Positions 30,001 to 36,000 of a stretch of 43,204 nt of DNA are shown one piece after another. Positions within the stretch are counted from its first letter, which is position 1; every line of letters starts with the position of its first letter. Made by a program: the position numbers. Origin of the DNA: a virus; the UHGV virus genome UHGV-0007115; one strand, 5' to 3'.

Positions 30001-33000
30001 TATGCAGGAACTGGGGATCCTTCCTGAGGATATCGATGTCGTGACGGCGAAAAGTTATCTTCCCCGCATTTATAAGTTCGATAAGATACTTTCCGACCGC
30101 ACTGAATTCAGAGGGCGAATTGCCAACTGGATACAAGGGATTAGTGCCAAAGGTGCTGACAAAGCAGGTCAGCGAATTGAAAGGATAAATTCATTGCTAA
30201 AAACTGCAGAGGAATCGGCACCGCGCGCTGATGCTCTCGCTAGTGAAATCGCTGAAGCGGAGAAATGGTCTGGTAAAAAAATTCTACTCATGGAAGAACT
30301 GGATAAACGAAATAAGCTTATATCTCAGGAGACTGACACACAGGCGCGTCTTACAAGAATAGAAAAAGAGTTGGCCGAGACTTCATCAGAAAAACTTCAG
30401 GCAAGAATGATGAAAGAAAGCTCTGACCTTAAAACACGCCTTGATGATATAGCGCAGGCAAAGAGTGAGCTTCCTGTCTATCAGCGTCATATGGAGTTGT
30501 TGGATAATCCACGGAAATATCGTTCTGAGCTTCGCCGACTGCAAAAACGGGCAAATTCAACCACAAGGCTGAATGCAAGCCGCGAACGAGCACTGAAGCA
30601 GATGGAGCCTCTATCCCGAGAGGAAGCAGAGGACGCTGCTGACGAGATCGTGAATAAAATAATAGGCGCACCTTCCGGGCTTGTACCAGCCGATATTATC
30701 CCAGAGAGACTCGTTGGTCGGGCTGGTTTCACTAAAAGCAGAACGCTGCTTATTCCTGATGAGCGTATAGAAGATTTTCTTGAATCAGATGTTAACTACA
30801 TCATGGAAAGTTATCTCCGGCAGGTGGCACCAGAAATTGAGCTGACTGCGCAGTTTGGCCGTAAAGATATGGGGGAGCAAATCCGTCAGGTTAGTGAGGA
30901 ATATACCCGGCTAATAAAAGAGGCTAAAACACCTAAACGACGTGCAGTTCTTGAGAAGCAACGGGAGGCTGATATTAGGGATATTACGGCTATGCGTGAT
31001 CGACTGCTTGGTACTTACGGTGCACCTCAAGATCCACGCAGTTTCTTTGTTCGTGCCGGGCGAGTTGCTAGGAATATTAACTTCCTCCGTTTGCTTGGTG
31101 GAATGACTGTCTCCGCTGCAACTGATCTGATGCGACCGATGATGCAGCATGGCCTGAGAAAATCTCTCGGACCAATGGTAAGCATGCTTAAAAATATGGA
31201 CTCAGTGAAAATTGCAACCAGGGATTTGCGAGAAATGGCCGTTGGGCTTGATTATGTCCTGTCTACGCGTACAAAGGCTATAGCGGATCTTACTGACCCC
31301 TATAGCCGGAGAAGCGCCGCTGAGCGAGGTCTGAACTGGATGACGCAGAAATTCGGTAACTGGACGCTGATGAATCAGTGGAACAGCGCACTTAAATCAT
31401 GGTCCGGGATGATAGTGCAGTCGAGGATACTTGACGCGGCTCGCCAAGTTTCTGCTGGTGGCACGCTCTCCAAAAGTGAAATGCGGAAGATGGCACAGGT
31501 CGGCATCAATGAAGATGTTCTGCGCCGAATCGGGGAGCAATTCGGGAAGCACGGAGAGGATATGGACGGGCTGTTAACCGGGCATAGTCATCTGTGGGAT
31601 GACCGTTTCGCTAGAGAGATTTTCCAGTCTGCAGTGCTGAAAGATGTAGACTCAGTGATTGTAACGCCTGGCGTAGGTGATACACCGCTGTTTTTTAGTA
31701 AAGAAGGCTGGAAGATGATCACGCAGTTCAAAACGTTTATCTTCGCACAGCATAACAGGGTGCTGGTATCTGGTATCCAGCAGGGCGATGCTGCATTCTA
31801 TCTTGGTGCGCTTGGCACGATTGCGCTTGGCTCAATGGTCTATATGATGAAACAGAAGTTAAGCGGTCGCGATATTGACTACAGCTGGAATAACCTTGTG
31901 AAAGAGGGGATCGACCGGGGCGGAATGCTTGGCTGGCTCTCTGAGCCGCTGAATACCGTTGAGAACATAAGCGGCGGTAGGTTTGGTCTTGGCGCGATGT
32001 TTGGTGCGCCTCCGGTATCAAGGTTTCAGAGTCGTAATGCTATTGGTGCTTTACTTGGTCCTACCTTTGATCTTGGCGGTGATGCCGCGACGGTTGCGAA
32101 TGGTGTACTTAACGGAGAATTTGACAGCCAGCAAACCCACGCTGTCCGTAAAATGCTACCTTTTCAGAATCTGTGGGCGATATCACCATTACTAAATAAA
32201 GTTGAAGAACAGATGAAATAGGATGAAAAAAATAAATTTGTTTTTTGGCATAGTGCTTTCAATAGTCTCTGTAAATCCTACAGCTGCCAGTTCATTGCAA
32301 TGCAATAAGGATAACTTTGATGCATGCAAAACGTGTGAACAATTATCAAAGGCTATCGACTTAAAAGAACCTAATCGTGGCGATTACTATAGAGGGGCTT
32401 TATGGAATGGGCTTTACGCCTCTTATGTAATTAATTGCCCTGTGGTTGCTGAGAAGTTACTGAGCCATGGTGCTATACCATCATATGGCGGATATATGGG
32501 GTCTATGGGGGCGGTTCTGACAGGAAAATGGCCTCATAACAATGAATCAATAAATCTTTCATGGGCAGATTTGCTTATAAAACATGGGTTTGATGTTAAT
32601 AGGCATACGGGGAATTATAAATCAGCTACTGAAGTATGGGCTATAGATAAAAAACAGATTGAATATAAGTCAGTTTTTGACAAGTTAATTCAATCCAGCG
32701 AAGTAAAACCACTCGATCCTTCAAGAAATTTAGAATGGTGTGCGTCTGAAGGGTATCGCTCAGTTGTCGTTTATTCCCTTAACTCATGTATAGAAAATGC
32801 TATAAAACGTTTGGATGATGGTGTTTCTTCAGCGTCTGATATTTCATCAGCAGCCGTAAATTCCTGTACTAGCGATGTAGAAAATTTCAATAAGCATTTG
32901 GCATGCAAAGCAGCTGTTAAAGAAAACTCTGATAAAGAGAGAAGCAACGTTTACCAGTTATTAACCAGTGATAGTCAAATGAATAAAAATGTTATTGATA

Positions 33001-36000
33001 TGCTGAAGGAAAGAAATATTGAAACGGTTCTTGAATTTAGAGCTGAAAATCGATCAGCGAAAACTGCACAGTGATCAAACAGGCCGCTTTCGCGGCCTTG
33101 TTTTTAACGAATGCCACCGCCACCCGGGCGGGAATCCGCAGAACGCCCACCGCAGCGGGAGCCGTCAGCAGCAGTGTCGCTGTCGTGCTGACAACGACCG
33201 GCAAAGGCCTGAGTTGAAGCTACCAGAGACAACAAAACGAACAGTGCAGCAAATGCTTTTTTCATTGTGAAATTTCCATCTATAAGCCACCTCAATGTGG
33301 CGTCAATGAGTGTAGCACTGACTTTTGTTTCGTCCATAAAAAACTACTATGCAGGCTTTTTGGATTTGTACGAATAATCCCACGGATAAACATTTCTACT
33401 AAGTGGAGCTGTATTAGTTCGTTCATGAAATAATTTTGTGAAATTCAATACGGAATCCATCCAAACTTTTGCGTTAGCTTTGGTGTGTGCGGGCGGGTCC
33501 CAATAAGCTAGTAAGGCTGCATCTCTTATTTCATTGACTGCATATATGAGATATGCGTTACTGGTTGGTTTTGGCCTGTAATTTCCTTGTTCATCAATCA
33601 ATCCATATGACCACTCATCCCAACACTGTTCAGTACATGAGTATGAATATGATGCATATTCACCAATATTGACATGAACCTTTCTGAGATGGAAGCCTAA
33701 TACTTCGTCTGGTCTTTCAAAAAGAGTATCTTTTCCCAGATCAGGATGATGACCATGACGCCAGTGTTGTTTAAAAGCATCTTTTAGCGAAATCAGAAAG
33801 TCATCAGTTTTAAACTCACCAGTAGGTATAACCTTCCCGCTATACTCACTCAAAAACATCGAATTCCTCTTCCTTCATATGCGTTTCTAATGAGTTAAGC
33901 TGGCGGAAAGATATCTCTTTTGATTCTGCAGATGAGAGCTTTTTTATCCGCTTGATATTCTTTGTGATAGGAATAGACATTGTATGCACATCAGCGGATG
34001 CTCTTGGCTTTGTGCTGATAAAAATATGGCGCAATGCCGCATTTTCACTATTGAACGAGCCAATAGCTGATTTACGTGCTACAACCTTACCAGTAAAAAT
34101 ACGACTCTTGCTACGCTTTGCATGAGTTCCGCTTCTTACCGGACCTCTCATCACGAATCCAAGTTTTGTCATCTTTAATCTCCGGTAAGTTACAGGTATA
34201 AAATAAAAACAGGTTTACCTTTAAGGTAATAGTACGCTATTCACCCCCGGTCTGCAATCTGTACAGAATTATTTAAAGGCACATCCCTGTGCCGCCGCCC
34301 GTCAGAAGAATCCTGCTTTGTCGTTGATGTACTCCGCGTGGGTCTGGATATCACGCAGGCATTTGCTCACACCGACGATGTAGCAGAACATGGTGGTCAG
34401 CTCCGCCGCCGCGCCCGATACATCGTGCCCGTCTTCCTGTAACTGGTTCAGCAGATTCATCAGCAGTGAGTTCTCCGTCAGGCCGAGAACACCAGACGGA
34501 GAATGAATCAGGCTACGGTAGCCGGGCTTCAGCGGGGCGCTGTAGGTTTTGTTCTCTATCTTCATTGCCTGCATCACTGCTGATGCTGTGGCGTTGGCTA
34601 CCTGGTCGGCAACCATCTTTATGCGTTCTTCCTGCGGGAGCGAGTTTTTAATGTAACTTCCGGTGCGGCGGATCTGAGGAAGAACCTCACCTGTAACCCA
34701 TTCAAGAAATCTGAATGCTCTCGTTCCCTCAGTCATTGCCTCTTTGCAACGCAGAATAAGGATGTAGAGACCTGATTCTGAAACGATGGATAGTTCTTGT
34801 ATTCCACCAGGGGTCTGTATTGAATACAGCCCCTTTTTGTTCCAGCCTTTTTTATCAAGTTTTCTCGCTTGTGTAACATCAATATTCAAAGCATTGCACA
34901 CATCTTTGGTGACAAACCAAGGTTCTCCGTCAATCATGAACATACGGATCTGGCAGGATGACTCAAAGGAAAAGATGGAAGGTTTGGTATTCATGGCGAT
35001 CACCTTTGTAGTTAGGTTAATCACCACCGCTGAGACCAATCAGATGGTGGTGAACTGTGCAGAGTTGGTCTTACCGGCTACAAAGGAACCCGGCGCACCT
35101 TTCGGTGCCCCCACACAGCCCACCATAGAATAGGTGCGCTTTACACATAAAAAAACCGCTTATGCGGCATATGTGCCTCTGTAGTAATCCGGGAGACCAA
35201 TCCCGGCACTGGATTTTGCCAGTGCCCGATTACTATGGCACAAGAGGAGTGCGATGTAAATTTACCGCAAAGGTAATGATAAACGCGGAGAAATATTAAA
35301 ATCAACCGCATTTGGTTGATTGCGTTTAACGCTTGATCACCTGAAAGCAAGATATTACCTTTAAGGTAATGTTATTGTGAGGAAAAGCAATGGAAGTTTT
35401 CTGGATAGTTGTTGGTGTTGTTACGGTGATTATTTACGTTATCAACCAGAACAGGACTAAGGTCTCTGATCGCACAGTCGTTAATCATCGCAAAACGATA
35501 AAGACCGAAGATGGAGAAATAACGATTAATCGTACACAGGTGATAGACCACACCTCCACTCAGTTTCAAAAAACTGGAGGTAATGCGCCGGATATTTCTG
35601 TACATCCTGCTTATGATATATCGGTAATCCAGACATATTATAAACAGCAGGAGTCAGCAAAAGAGAGGGCGCTGATTCAGCCAAAGCCATTTACAGCAGA
35701 GCTTCCACCTGGAGTGTCAACGCGTCCGGCATATCATGACAGATTCCCAGGTGATGACATATCGTCTCAGTTACCTAAAAAAGCTCCTCAGGTAGTATCT
35801 GAGCCAGCAAGAATACCTTCTGTATCGCCATCACAAGAAGAATCAGCTAACAGAGTTTCAAGTGGTAGTAAGCAGTGTTTGCGATGCAGAATAAACCTTC
35901 CATATGAAAAATTCAGGAAATCGTCAAAAAATCCAGATGGATTGACTAAGTGGTGTGCAAGGTGTCTCGATGGCCCAAAGAATACACGCCATATGAAGTG

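What the first reader, a model, noticed from the sequence alone, without database searches (positions are those of the whole stretch)
32223..33074. Low-GC secreted protein inserted directly after the injection-protein genes
A 283-aa ORF with a signal-like N-terminus and strongly AT-rich codon usage starts two bases after the gp16-like stop and ends at a bidirectional terminator. It contains ankyrin-like LLxxGA/LLxxGFDVN motifs. Placement and composition mark it as horizontally acquired cargo, possibly a periplasmic superinfection-exclusion or host-interaction factor.
Basis: partly seen in the sequence, partly recalled or inferred. Interest (0 to 1): 0.55.

Follow-up and report, generated by a model that had tools for sequence, protein, structure and literature searches.

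The report
Secreted ankyrin-type cell-wall-enzyme inhibitor in prophage
The last gene of this E. coli prophage's DNA-injection operon encodes an uncharacterised exported protein, and its ankyrin-repeat half belongs to a family that elsewhere sits beside the same cell-wall-cutting enzyme the phage carries, so it is probably a periplasmic inhibitor that disarms incoming rival phages.

Summary
ORF 32223-33074 (+) is a real, conserved 283-aa gene (dN/dS about 0.17). It has a Sec-type signal peptide, 8 invariant cysteines, and GC 36.9% against 47-48% in the flanking genes. It starts 2 nt after the stop of the 1129-aa ejection-protein gene and ends at a strong terminator.

The window is an epsilon15/phiV10-like prophage. 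The protein has no Pfam, NCBIfam or PADLOC match; it is phrog_6118 of unknown function and 'hypothetical' in RefSeq.

It is a fusion of two domains:
- **C-terminal domain (aa 166-283).** A helical domain with no known relatives.

New lead: stand-alone secreted homologues of the ankyrin domain lie next to signal-less Enc34-type peptidoglycan hydrolase genes in 5 of about 14 distinct environmental loci, one beside a T6SS clpV. That is an effector-immunity layout. The same hydrolase domain sits in this phage's 915-aa ejection protein, two genes upstream.

Best reading: a periplasmic, immunity-type inhibitor of ejection-protein muramidase, analogous to T4 Spackle. It occupies an exchangeable cargo slot that matches the position of P22 sieA. 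The function is inferred, not shown.

The parts
32223..33074 (+). Complete gene for the 283-aa exported two-domain protein (stop codon included); RefSeq WP_000723561.1, phrog_6118
   Evidence: dN/dS 0.17
32223..32294 (+). Sec-type signal peptide (aa 1-24; likely cleavage after A22, S23 or S24; not a lipoprotein)
   Evidence: Sequence and hydropathy. The hydrophobic N-terminus is conserved although this segment evolves fastest (71-75% identity, dN/dS 0.31-0.36 against Klebsiella)
32295..32717 (+). N-terminal Cys-capped ankyrin-repeat domain (aa 25-165; invariant C27, C35, C38, C72; motifs GDYYRGALWNGLY, LLSHGAxP, KWPHNN); proposed muramidase-binding/immunity module
32718..33071 (+). C-terminal helical domain (aa 166-283; invariant C173, C189, C215, C228; motif RLDDGVSxASDIS); function unknown
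   Evidence: pLDDT >90 helical bundle. Family of stand-alone 110-160-aa secreted proteins. No Pfam or PDB sequence match. Stand-alone copies lie next to P4-type integrases
33081..33106 (+). Intrinsic terminator (GC hairpin 33081-33098 plus U-run) ending the late/ejection operon, placed between convergent genes
26823..27281 (+). Enc34-type (PHA02564) peptidoglycan hydrolase domain (aa 247-399, RNNNPGNI...HENG) inside the 915-aa ejection protein (gene 26085-28832); proposed target class of the ankyrin domain
   Evidence: PDB sequence hits 9VVP Gp29 at 6.6e-35 and Enc34 endolysin 7Q47 at 5e-15; PHROG endolysin / tail injection transglycosylase; PMC8943055
28832..32221 (+). 1129-aa ejection (internal virion) protein gene directly upstream; always precedes the target gene in every homologous locus

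Best explanation
SHOWN. The gene encodes a conserved protein under purifying selection, with these features:
- a Sec signal peptide;
- eight invariant cysteines;
- an N-terminal ankyrin-repeat domain;
- a C-terminal helical domain with no known relatives.
It is the last gene of the ejection-protein operon of an epsilon15/phiV10-like prophage. It sits in a slot that holds different cargo in related phages. Stand-alone secreted homologues of the ankyrin domain are repeatedly encoded next to signal-less Enc34-type peptidoglycan hydrolases, once beside a T6SS clpV. This phage's 915-aa ejection protein carries a hydrolase domain of that same family.

INFERRED.
1. The mature protein is exported to the periplasm and stabilised by disulfides.
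2. Its ankyrin domain binds and blocks Enc34-type muramidase domains, in the way a periplasmic immunity protein blocks a type VI effector.
3. The phage's own muramidase is packaged from the cytoplasm. The inhibitor can therefore only meet muramidase that arrives from outside.
4. The likely outside source is the ejection proteins of superinfecting phages of this group. The effect would be superinfection exclusion, or protection from lysis-from-without, at the cell-wall penetration step. This is mechanistically like T4 Spackle inhibiting gp5 lysozyme, and positionally like P22 sieA.
5. It may also protect against bacterial type VI effectors of the same enzyme family.
6. The C-terminal domain probably adds a second binding specificity or a localisation function; which one is unknown.
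For: Gene reality and export signals.

Ankyrin fold:
- AF2 model of aa 23-165 with 45 sequences, pLDDT 94.5.
- The family profile hits only ankyrin-type chains in the PDB, best 2.8e-4, and a genuine ankyrin protein at 5.5e-9.

Two-domain fusion: each half matches its own family of stand-alone secreted proteins.

Neighbourhood link to the hydrolase:
- P0024 (E 6e-40 to the family profile) overlaps at its stop codon the start of a 178-aa signal-less protein. That protein is 31% identical (E 3e-24) to aa 248-414 of the window's 915-aa ejection protein, and matches Enc34 endolysin 7Q47 at 1.9e-24.
- The same pairing occurs in L068/L097 and in L069. In L069 the neighbouring AAA+ gene matches ClpV1 (4UQW) at 1e-22.
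- More distant hydrolase homologues lie 4 nt upstream in L070 and 0.5 kb away in L062.
- In 230 kb of 37 non-phage loci, the hydrolase profile hit nothing except these neighbours.

Target domain in the phage: the window's ejection protein carries the same enzyme domain. Enc34-family muralytic activity is experimentally shown (PMC8943055).

Precedents in the literature:
- a T6SS effector with an Enc34-like domain and signal-peptide immunity proteins (PMC13340143);
- ankyrin-repeat immunity proteins: Tli (10.1101/2023.03.28.534661) and Imm-Ank (PMC3482391);
- periplasmic Spackle inhibits T4 gp5 lysozyme (PMC7677548);
- P22 sieA lies between gene 16 and gene 9 and targets ejection proteins (PMC10883804).

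Synteny: strict linkage to the ejection-protein genes in 31 IMG/VR loci and four genera.
Against: - No binding or inhibition was tested, and no complex model could be run.
- Only 5 of about 14 distinct stand-alone loci show the hydrolase neighbour. A separate alphaproteobacterial clade is instead linked to a cytochrome c / NOX5-like oxidase cluster, so the scaffold serves more than one partner.
- The phage domain is only 39-55% identical to the hydrolase-linked homologues, and specificity may not transfer.
- No sigma-70-like promoter was found upstream. Expression in the lysogen, which classical exclusion needs, is therefore unproven. Late-only expression would fit exclusion less well.
- From general knowledge, muralytic domains of podovirus ejection proteins such as T7 gp16 are dispensable under many growth conditions, so inhibiting one may give only partial exclusion.
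- One of 106 E. coli genomes carries two copies of the gene, so exclusion of like prophages is not absolute.
- The C-terminal domain is unexplained.
- There is no PADLOC match.
Confidence: 0.45

Rival explanations
1. Orphan immunity protein for interbacterial warfare. The prophage gives its host a periplasmic inhibitor of type VI-delivered Enc34-type muramidase effectors from competing bacteria, and phage exclusion is incidental or absent. The predicted biochemistry is the same as in the best explanation, but the biological beneficiary differs.
For: The hydrolase-ankyrin pairs have effector-immunity architecture: a signal-less enzyme, a signal-peptide partner, and clpV next to L069. A T6SS effector with an Enc34-like domain and secreted immunity proteins has been reported (PMC13340143). 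Orphan immunity genes on mobile elements are common (general knowledge; polyimmunity loci in PMC3482391).
Against: The gene is strictly linked to phages that themselves carry this muramidase in an ejection protein. Exclusion explains that linkage more simply. No T6SS genes are present in the window.
Confidence: 0.15
2. Eukaryote-directed or environment-directed factor released at lysis. The protein is exported late in infection and freed by phage lysis. The secreted disulfide-rich ankyrin protein then acts on animal host cells, as proposed for the 'Ankyphage' ANKp, and by the same release route as Shiga toxin.
For: The protein combines ankyrin repeats, a signal peptide and 8 Cys. It is the terminal gene of the late operon with no promoter of its own found. 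Carriers are animal-associated Enterobacterales, including ExPEC/APEC strains IHE3034 and APEC O18. ANKp precedent: 10.1101/608950.
Against: Homologues of both domains occur in free-living environmental bacteria, in periplasmic or mobile-element contexts. The nearest stand-alone relatives pair with a bacterial cell-wall enzyme and not with eukaryote-directed systems. No Pfam Ank signature was found.
Confidence: 0.1
3. Periplasmic stress-protection accessory. The ankyrin domain partners a periplasmic redox or haem protein, as AnkB does for catalase KatB, and raises the lysogen's fitness under oxidative stress.
For: Five of five loci examined, from a distant clade of stand-alone homologues, lie in a conserved cytochrome c - ankyrin-like operon divergent from a NOX5-like NADPH oxidase. 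AnkB-KatB precedent is cited in PMC12754779.
Against: That clade is the most distant one (20-34% identity, 64-74 bits against 170-220 bits for the KWPHNN clade) and lacks the KWPHNN motif. No redox gene accompanies the phage gene.
Confidence: 0.08
4. Entry blocker that acts on the ejection conduit and not on its enzyme. The protein, perhaps through its fast-evolving C-terminal domain, binds the periplasm-spanning tube formed by the 915-aa and 1129-aa proteins, as SieA interferes with P22 gp16 and gp20.
For: Its position is equivalent to sieA, between the last ejection-protein gene and the tailspike gene (PMC10883804). It shows strict synteny and co-divergence with the 1129-aa protein. The C-domain evolves faster than the N-domain (dN/dS 0.19-0.25 against 0.07-0.13).
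Against: SieA is an integral inner-membrane protein, whereas this protein has no transmembrane segment after the signal peptide. No evidence links the C-domain to ejection proteins.
Confidence: 0.1

Closest known systems
T4 Spackle (gp61.3), periplasmic inhibitor of the gp5 tail lysozyme (PMC7677548)
   Same: A phage-encoded protein exported to the periplasm. Its proposed job is to neutralise the peptidoglycan-cutting domain carried by an incoming virion.
   Different: No sequence or fold similarity was detected. This protein is an ankyrin-repeat domain plus a second domain, its target enzyme is Enc34/PHA02564-type and not T4-lysozyme-type, and it comes from a temperate podovirus and not a virulent myovirus. 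Spackle's activity is demonstrated; the activity here is inferred.
Ankyrin-repeat immunity proteins of antibacterial effectors (E. cloacae Tli for the T6SS lipase Tle; 'Imm-Ank' of polymorphic toxin systems; 10.1101/2023.03.28.534661, PMC3482391)
   Same: An ankyrin-repeat scaffold with an export signal, encoded next to a signal-less toxic enzyme (shown for the stand-alone homologues).
   Different: Tli is a lipoprotein that partners a phospholipase, and Imm-Ank partners nucleases. Here the partner is a muramidase/glucosaminidase, the family has a distinctive Cys-rich N-cap, and the phage version is fused to an extra domain and is not adjacent to a free toxin gene.
P22 SieA superinfection exclusion protein (PMC10883804)
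   Same: It occupies the same genome position, between the last ejection-protein gene and the tailspike gene in a short-tailed temperate phage with an Ant/immI-like region. Presence is variable among relatives, and it acts against ejection proteins.
   Different: SieA is a polytopic inner-membrane protein with no ankyrin repeats. No homology was detected.
'Ankyphage' ANKp, a secreted phage ankyrin protein (10.1101/608950)
   Same: A phage-encoded ankyrin protein with an N-terminal signal peptide and no transmembrane domain.
   Different: ANKp carries canonical Pfam ankyrin signatures and is reported to act on eukaryotic immune cells. This protein is below Pfam thresholds, and its relatives pair with a bacterial cell-wall enzyme.
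Pseudomonas AnkB, periplasmic ankyrin-like partner of catalase KatB (cited in PMC12754779)
   Same: A periplasmic bacterial ankyrin-like accessory protein. A distant clade of this family is likewise embedded in a periplasmic redox gene cluster.
   Different: No catalase or redox gene lies next to the phage gene, and no direct homology to AnkB was tested.

Membership tests
Ankyrin-repeat fold | Stacked helix-loop-helix repeats with beta-hairpin/loop fingers; structural match to solved ankyrin domains | tested here: met
Ankyrin-repeat fold | Passes Pfam Ank/Ank_2-5 HMM thresholds | tested here: not met
   No Pfam hit for the window protein at E<=1. Only 2 of 20 family members hit PF00023, best 7.3e-5. 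The family profile does reach ankyrins in the PDB (2.8e-4) and a true ankyrin protein (5.5e-9)
Periplasmic immunity protein of a cell-wall-degrading effector (T6SS-type effector-immunity pair) | Immunity gene adjacent to, and co-oriented with, the gene of a signal-less toxic enzyme | tested here: inconclusive
   Met for stand-alone homologues in 5 of about 14 distinct loci (L063, L068, L069, L070, L062). In the window the enzyme domain is part of an ejection protein two genes upstream and is not a free effector
Periplasmic immunity protein of a cell-wall-degrading effector (T6SS-type effector-immunity pair) | Export signal that places the immunity protein in the compartment where the enzyme acts | tested here: met
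   Signal-peptide-like N-terminus in the window protein and in all homologues inspected. The partner hydrolases have no hydrophobic N-terminus
Periplasmic immunity protein of a cell-wall-degrading effector (T6SS-type effector-immunity pair) | Direct binding and neutralisation of the cognate enzyme | not testable with these tools
T4 Spackle family | Sequence or fold homology to Spackle | tested here: not met
P22 SieA family | Polytopic inner-membrane protein | tested here: not met
   The only hydrophobic segment is the N-terminal signal sequence. The AF2 model is a soluble all-alpha two-domain protein
P22 SieA family | Located between the last ejection-protein gene and the tailspike gene, with variable presence among related phages | tested here: met
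   PMC10883804 section 13
Moron (lambda-type autonomous cargo unit) | Atypical composition and presence/absence polymorphism at a fixed site | tested here: met
   GC 36.9% against 47.5% for the window; alternative contents of the slot
Moron (lambda-type autonomous cargo unit) | Own promoter and own terminator | tested here: inconclusive
   A terminator is present. No sigma-70-like promoter was found on the + strand between 31500 and the start codon. The intergenic gap is 1 nt here and 11-31 nt in Serratia and Morganella. A consensus scan cannot exclude a weak internal promoter
Known anti-phage defence systems (PADLOC) | Match to a PADLOC-DB model | tested here: not met
   No hit at E<=0.01

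The most novel reading that the evidence does not exclude
A temperate podovirus lineage has captured a type VI-style periplasmic immunity protein, an ankyrin-repeat inhibitor of Enc34-type muramidases, and fused it to a second secreted domain. It uses the fusion to disarm the cell-wall-cutting head of the ejection proteins of rival phages of its own kind. The same protein may also make the lysogen immune to bacterial effectors of that enzyme family. This would link phage exclusion and interbacterial immunity through one inhibitor, and would define two new uncurated protein families.
Probability: 0.3. Interest if true: 0.7.

Novelty: new variant of a known kind. Interest (0 to 1): 0.55.

Why it matters
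- **A second exclusion mechanism of the Spackle type.** If correct, this would be a second, structurally unrelated example of superinfection exclusion by periplasmic inhibition of a virion-borne cell-wall enzyme. To my knowledge it would be the first such example for epsilon15/phiV10-type phages.
- **Names for uncharacterised families.** It gives a working function to an unannotated family (phrog_6118, WP_000723561.1) present in about 2% of complete E. coli genomes, including ExPEC/APEC lineages, and in Klebsiella, Serratia, Morganella and Providencia prophages. It also gives one to its stand-alone relatives next to Enc34-type effectors.
- **Shared parts between two kinds of conflict.** It suggests that phages and type VI systems draw on the same enzyme-inhibitor pairs.
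- **Phage therapy.** Prophage-encoded inhibitors of ejection-protein enzymes would be an unscored host-range determinant.
- **Testability.** The hypothesis can be tested with one cloned gene and one purified domain.

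Tried and rejected
Searches of the whole protein that found nothing:
- Pfam: no hit at E<=1.
- NCBIfam, on the protein and on stand-alone relatives: nothing meaningful.
- PADLOC: nothing.
- Foldseek against the PDB with the full-length model: no match better than E 2.2.
- The afdb50 fold library was not available.

The C-terminal domain remains unexplained:
- no Pfam hit;
- no PDB sequence hit even at E 10;
- only the unknown-function phrog_8691 in PHROGs;
- an hhalign comparison with the hydrolase partner protein was negative.

Tests of specific ideas:
- LprI/DUF1311-like lysozyme inhibitor for the C-domain: considered from memory, but no Pfam support.
- Lipoprotein: rejected, because there is no lipobox.
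- Recent horizontal insertion: rejected, given the conserved synteny and the persistently low GC across genera.
- Virion structural role: rejected. The protein has an export signal, and E. coli strain 2/0 carries a near-identical ejection gene with different cargo in the slot.

Other dead ends:
- A literature search for the RefSeq accession found nothing.
- A viral-contig scan with the broad N-domain alignment failed for lack of a conserved stretch.
- A 217-aa neighbour in L065 looked lysozyme-like by eye, but a PDB sequence search gave no match, so it is not counted.
- The contigs carrying P0023 and P0070 were too short to give context.

Full report
**1. What is there**

The window is an epsilon15/phiV10-like (Uetakevirus-type) prophage of E. 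coli.
- Its right half matches phage EC.W1-9 at 97.8% identity. It matches TL-2011b, phiv142-3 and phiV10 at 94-95%.
- The late genes run on the + strand and end with two very large ejection (internal virion) proteins: 26085-28832 (915 aa) and 28832-32221 (1129 aa).
- The flagged ORF, 32223-33074 (+, 283 aa), starts one spacer base after the TAG of the 1129-aa gene.
- It ends 6 nt before a GC-rich hairpin (33081-33098; dG -16.5 kcal/mol, z -3.3) that is followed by a U-run on the + strand.
- A small convergent gene ends at 33104, so the hairpin sits between two stop codons. Its U-run on the - strand is weak.

**2.

- GC is 36.9% and GC3 is 28.5%. The two upstream genes have GC 46.7-48.1% and GC3 41.8-43.6%. 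Only 2.7% of 852-nt windows in the sequence are as AT-rich.
- The N-terminus (MKK / INLFFGIVLSIVSV / NPTAAS) has the charge, hydrophobic core and small -3/-1 residues of a Sec signal peptide. There is no lipobox and no second hydrophobic segment.
- The gene is real.
  - It matches phrog_6118 end to end.
  - There are 22 homologous protein clusters in E. coli, Klebsiella, Serratia, Morganella and Providencia.
  - It is present in 106 of 5426 complete E. coli genomes, always chromosomal.
  - There are 31 loci in IMG/VR.
  - dN/dS is 0.17 against the 86%-identical Klebsiella allele.
- Eight cysteines (27, 35, 38, 72, 173, 189, 215, 228) are invariant across proteins as divergent as 39% identity. 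This fits an oxidising compartment.
- RefSeq calls the protein hypothetical (WP_000723561.1). No paper in the library mentions it.

**3. Cargo, but old cargo**

The slot after the last ejection-protein gene is variable:
- phiV10 has a 46-aa membrane-protein gene there.
- TL-2011b has no gene on that strand.
- Klebsiella phage ST512-KPC3phi13.3 has an unrelated 204-aa protein.
- E. coli strain 2/0 has near-identical flanks but a different two-gene cassette, one product of which also has a signal peptide.

Yet wherever the 283-aa gene occurs, it follows the homologue of the 1129-aa protein. This holds in all 31 viral loci and in the Morganella and Serratia prophages.

It diverges in step with its neighbours:

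| Comparison with the window | Target gene identity | 1129-aa protein identity |
|---|---|---|
| Klebsiella | 86% | 92% |
| Serratia | 61% | 79% |
| Morganella | 41% | 55% |

It is 10-15 GC points below its neighbours in every lineage. Low GC is therefore a stable property of the gene and not a sign of recent arrival.

No sigma-70-like promoter was found upstream, and the intergenic gaps are 1-31 nt. The gene reads as the terminal cistron of the late operon.

**4. Anatomy: two fused domains**

A profile of the family, searched against 1.84 billion representative proteins, split the protein in two.
- Positions 1-155 match about 160-170-aa stand-alone secreted proteins, with E down to 1e-41.
- Positions 160-275 match a different set of 110-160-aa secreted proteins that share C-x9-LDDG[IV]SPASDIA-x7-C.

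*N-domain.* It has LLxxGAxP-type repeat signatures.
- Its family profile hits only ankyrin-type chains in the PDB (best 2.8e-4; Ankyrin-1 at 1.6e-3).
- It hits a bona fide ankyrin protein at 5.5e-9.
- The first full-length AF2 model was only moderate over this half, and its fold searches were uninformative.
- Remodelling aa 23-165 with 45 sequences gave pLDDT 94.5 and pTM 0.89.
- The ankyrin reading is therefore supported, although the protein itself is below Pfam thresholds.

*C-domain.* It is a confidently predicted helical bundle (pLDDT >90) with no Pfam, PDB or NCBIfam relative.
- Its stand-alone relatives in Thauera, Accumulibacter and a Sulfuricellaceae MAG lie beside P4-type integrase and primase genes, which marks them as mobile-element cargo.
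- It evolves faster than the N-domain (dN/dS 0.19-0.25 against 0.07-0.13).

**5. The functional lead**

Contexts of the stand-alone N-domain homologues fall into two groups.

*Distant alphaproteobacterial clade.* This clade has no KWPHNN motif. In five of five loci examined, the gene lies in a cytochrome c - ankyrin-like operon that is divergent from a NOX5-like NADPH oxidase.

*KWPHNN clade, which is closer to the phage domain (39-55% identity).*
- **L063/L064.** P0024's stop codon overlaps the start of a 178-aa protein with no signal peptide. That protein is 31% identical (E 3e-24) to residues 248-414 of this window's own 915-aa ejection protein. It matches the Enc34 endolysin catalytic domain (PDB 7Q47) at 1.9e-24.
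- **L068/L097 and L069.** The same pairing occurs. In L069 the neighbouring AAA+ protein's N-domain matches T6SS ClpV1 (4UQW, 1e-22).
- **L070 and L062.** More distant members of the same enzyme family lie 4 nt upstream of the ankyrin-like gene in L070 and 0.5 kb away in L062 (24.4 and 34.2 bits).
- **Specificity of the association.** Across 230 kb of 37 non-phage loci, the enzyme profile matched nothing else.

That makes 5 of about 14 distinct informative loci.

The window's 915-aa protein carries this enzyme domain at aa 247-399 (9VVP Gp29 at 6.6e-35; 7Q47 at 5e-15), including the HENG glutamate motif. The Enc34 family has demonstrated muralytic activity and a lysozyme-like structure (PMC8943055). 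A T6SS effector with an Enc34-like domain, flanked by two signal-peptide immunity genes, has been described (PMC13340143).

**6. Mechanism proposed**

A signal-less wall-degrading enzyme encoded next to a secreted binding-repeat protein is the classic effector-immunity layout. Ankyrin-repeat immunity proteins are an established class (Tli, 10.1101/2023.03.28.534661; Imm-Ank, PMC3482391).

I therefore infer that the phage's ankyrin domain binds and blocks Enc34-type muramidase domains in the periplasm. The phage's own enzyme is packaged from the cytoplasm, so the inhibitor can only meet enzyme that arrives from outside. Two outside sources are possible: ejection proteins of superinfecting phages of this group, or type VI effectors of the family.

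It is functionally like T4 Spackle acting on gp5 (PMC7677548). The gene also lies in the position where P22-like phages keep sieA, which targets ejection proteins (PMC10883804).

What is shown and what is inferred:
- Shown: gene reality, export-type features, the fold, the fusion, synteny, slot variability, the neighbourhood association, and the identity of the enzyme domain.
- Inferred: export and disulfides, binding, inhibition, the biological role, and anything about the C-domain.

**7. Caveats**

- The association covers a minority of stand-alone loci.
- The scaffold clearly serves other partners in another clade.
- Expression in the lysogen is unproven.
- From general knowledge, muralytic ejection domains are often conditionally dispensable, so any exclusion may be partial.
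- One E. coli genome has two copies of the gene.
- There is no PADLOC match.

**8. Novelty and verdict**

Both domain families are uncurated, with no Pfam, NCBIfam or PDB entry. The ideas involved are known: periplasmic inhibitors of virion lysozymes, ankyrin immunity proteins, and cargo at the sieA-like slot. The combination has not been described, as far as my searches show. That combination is an ankyrin-type inhibitor family for Enc34-type muramidases, recruited and fused by epsilon15-like prophages.

I rate it a new variant of a known kind, with interest 0.55. Confidence is 0.45 in the muramidase-inhibitor mechanism, and lower for the specific exclusion phenotype.

Noticed in passing
L011-L016, L055, L056 (alphaproteobacterial MAGs and marine metagenome contigs): A distant clade of stand-alone homologues of the ankyrin-like domain always sits in a small cytochrome c -> ankyrin-like protein operon. 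That operon is divergent from a ~680-aa NOX5-like NADPH oxidase (EF-hand + ferric reductase + FAD/NAD domains), usually followed by a glyoxalase gene. An aldo-keto reductase or EamA gene lies downstream. This looks like a conserved, undescribed periplasmic redox module.
   Followed up: partly
L017-L019 (Sulfuricellaceae MAG, Thauera sinica, Accumulibacter MAG): Stand-alone homologues of the C-terminal domain (motif DDxVSPASDIA) lie between, or next to, a P4-type integrase gene and a large primase/helicase gene. That marks them as cargo of an integrative element.
   Followed up: partly
L052:3801-4703 (E. coli strain 2/0) and L061:6293-6907 (Klebsiella phage ST512-KPC3phi13.3): Alternative cargo occupies the same slot after the 1129-aa ejection gene. 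In strain 2/0 it is a 146-aa protein with a signal peptide plus a 149-aa cytoplasmic protein. In the Klebsiella phage it is an unrelated 204-aa protein. The two strain 2/0 proteins have no Pfam or PADLOC match; the Klebsiella protein was only compared with the target by BLASTP.
   Followed up: partly
window 33104-33337 (-): A small convergent gene (RefSeq uses the 53-aa form, 33104-33265) encodes a signal-peptide protein with a Gly/Arg-rich tail, named 'transmembrane anchored protein' (phrog_3117/14503). Its 3' end plus the terminator occur in 489 of 5426 E. coli genomes, far more than the target gene. It is therefore a widely shared module boundary.
   Followed up: partly
window 33347-34172 (-): A low-GC (38.6-40.7%) gene pair, 108 aa followed by an overlapping 170-aa protein. 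The second gives a weak YafO-toxin match and RefSeq annotates it as a YafO-family toxin. It is probably a toxin-antitoxin-like cargo pair next to the Ant/Bro-N anti-repressor gene at 34302-35039.
   Followed up: no
window 35390-36118 (+): A 242-aa ORF with a hydrophobic N-terminus and a Cys-rich C-terminal half that weakly matches the Stc1 zinc-finger-like domain (E 4e-4, below threshold). Function unknown.
   Followed up: no
window 36593-38908 (+) and 2282-3385 (-): Two further strongly AT-rich genes: the 771-aa tailspike-position gene (GC 38.9%) and a 367-aa early-region gene (GC 37.8%). The target is therefore not the only compositionally atypical gene in the prophage.
   Followed up: no
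window 28832-32221 (+): RefSeq's name 'DUF919 family protein' for the 1129-aa ejection protein rests on a 46-residue match (aa 530-575, 23.4 bits against a cutoff of 21) to a baculovirus family, in a charged helical stretch. This is likely an uninformative annotation.
   Followed up: no
L087-L091 (marine metagenome contigs): The ankyrin-like domain also occurs fused behind N-terminal repeats of the YVGE[WF]KD type (MORN-like by eye) in 458-479-aa secreted proteins. One of these lies about 0.8 kb from what looks, by eye, like an integrase gene. The domain also occurs fused to other C-terminal domains (P0032, P0043, P0046, and P0054 with TPR), so the module is used combinatorially.
   Followed up: no
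L069:12-5018: An Enc34-type hydrolase plus secreted ankyrin-like pair lies about 1.3 kb from a T6SS clpV (tssH) gene. This suggests an undescribed type VI effector-immunity family.
   Followed up: partly
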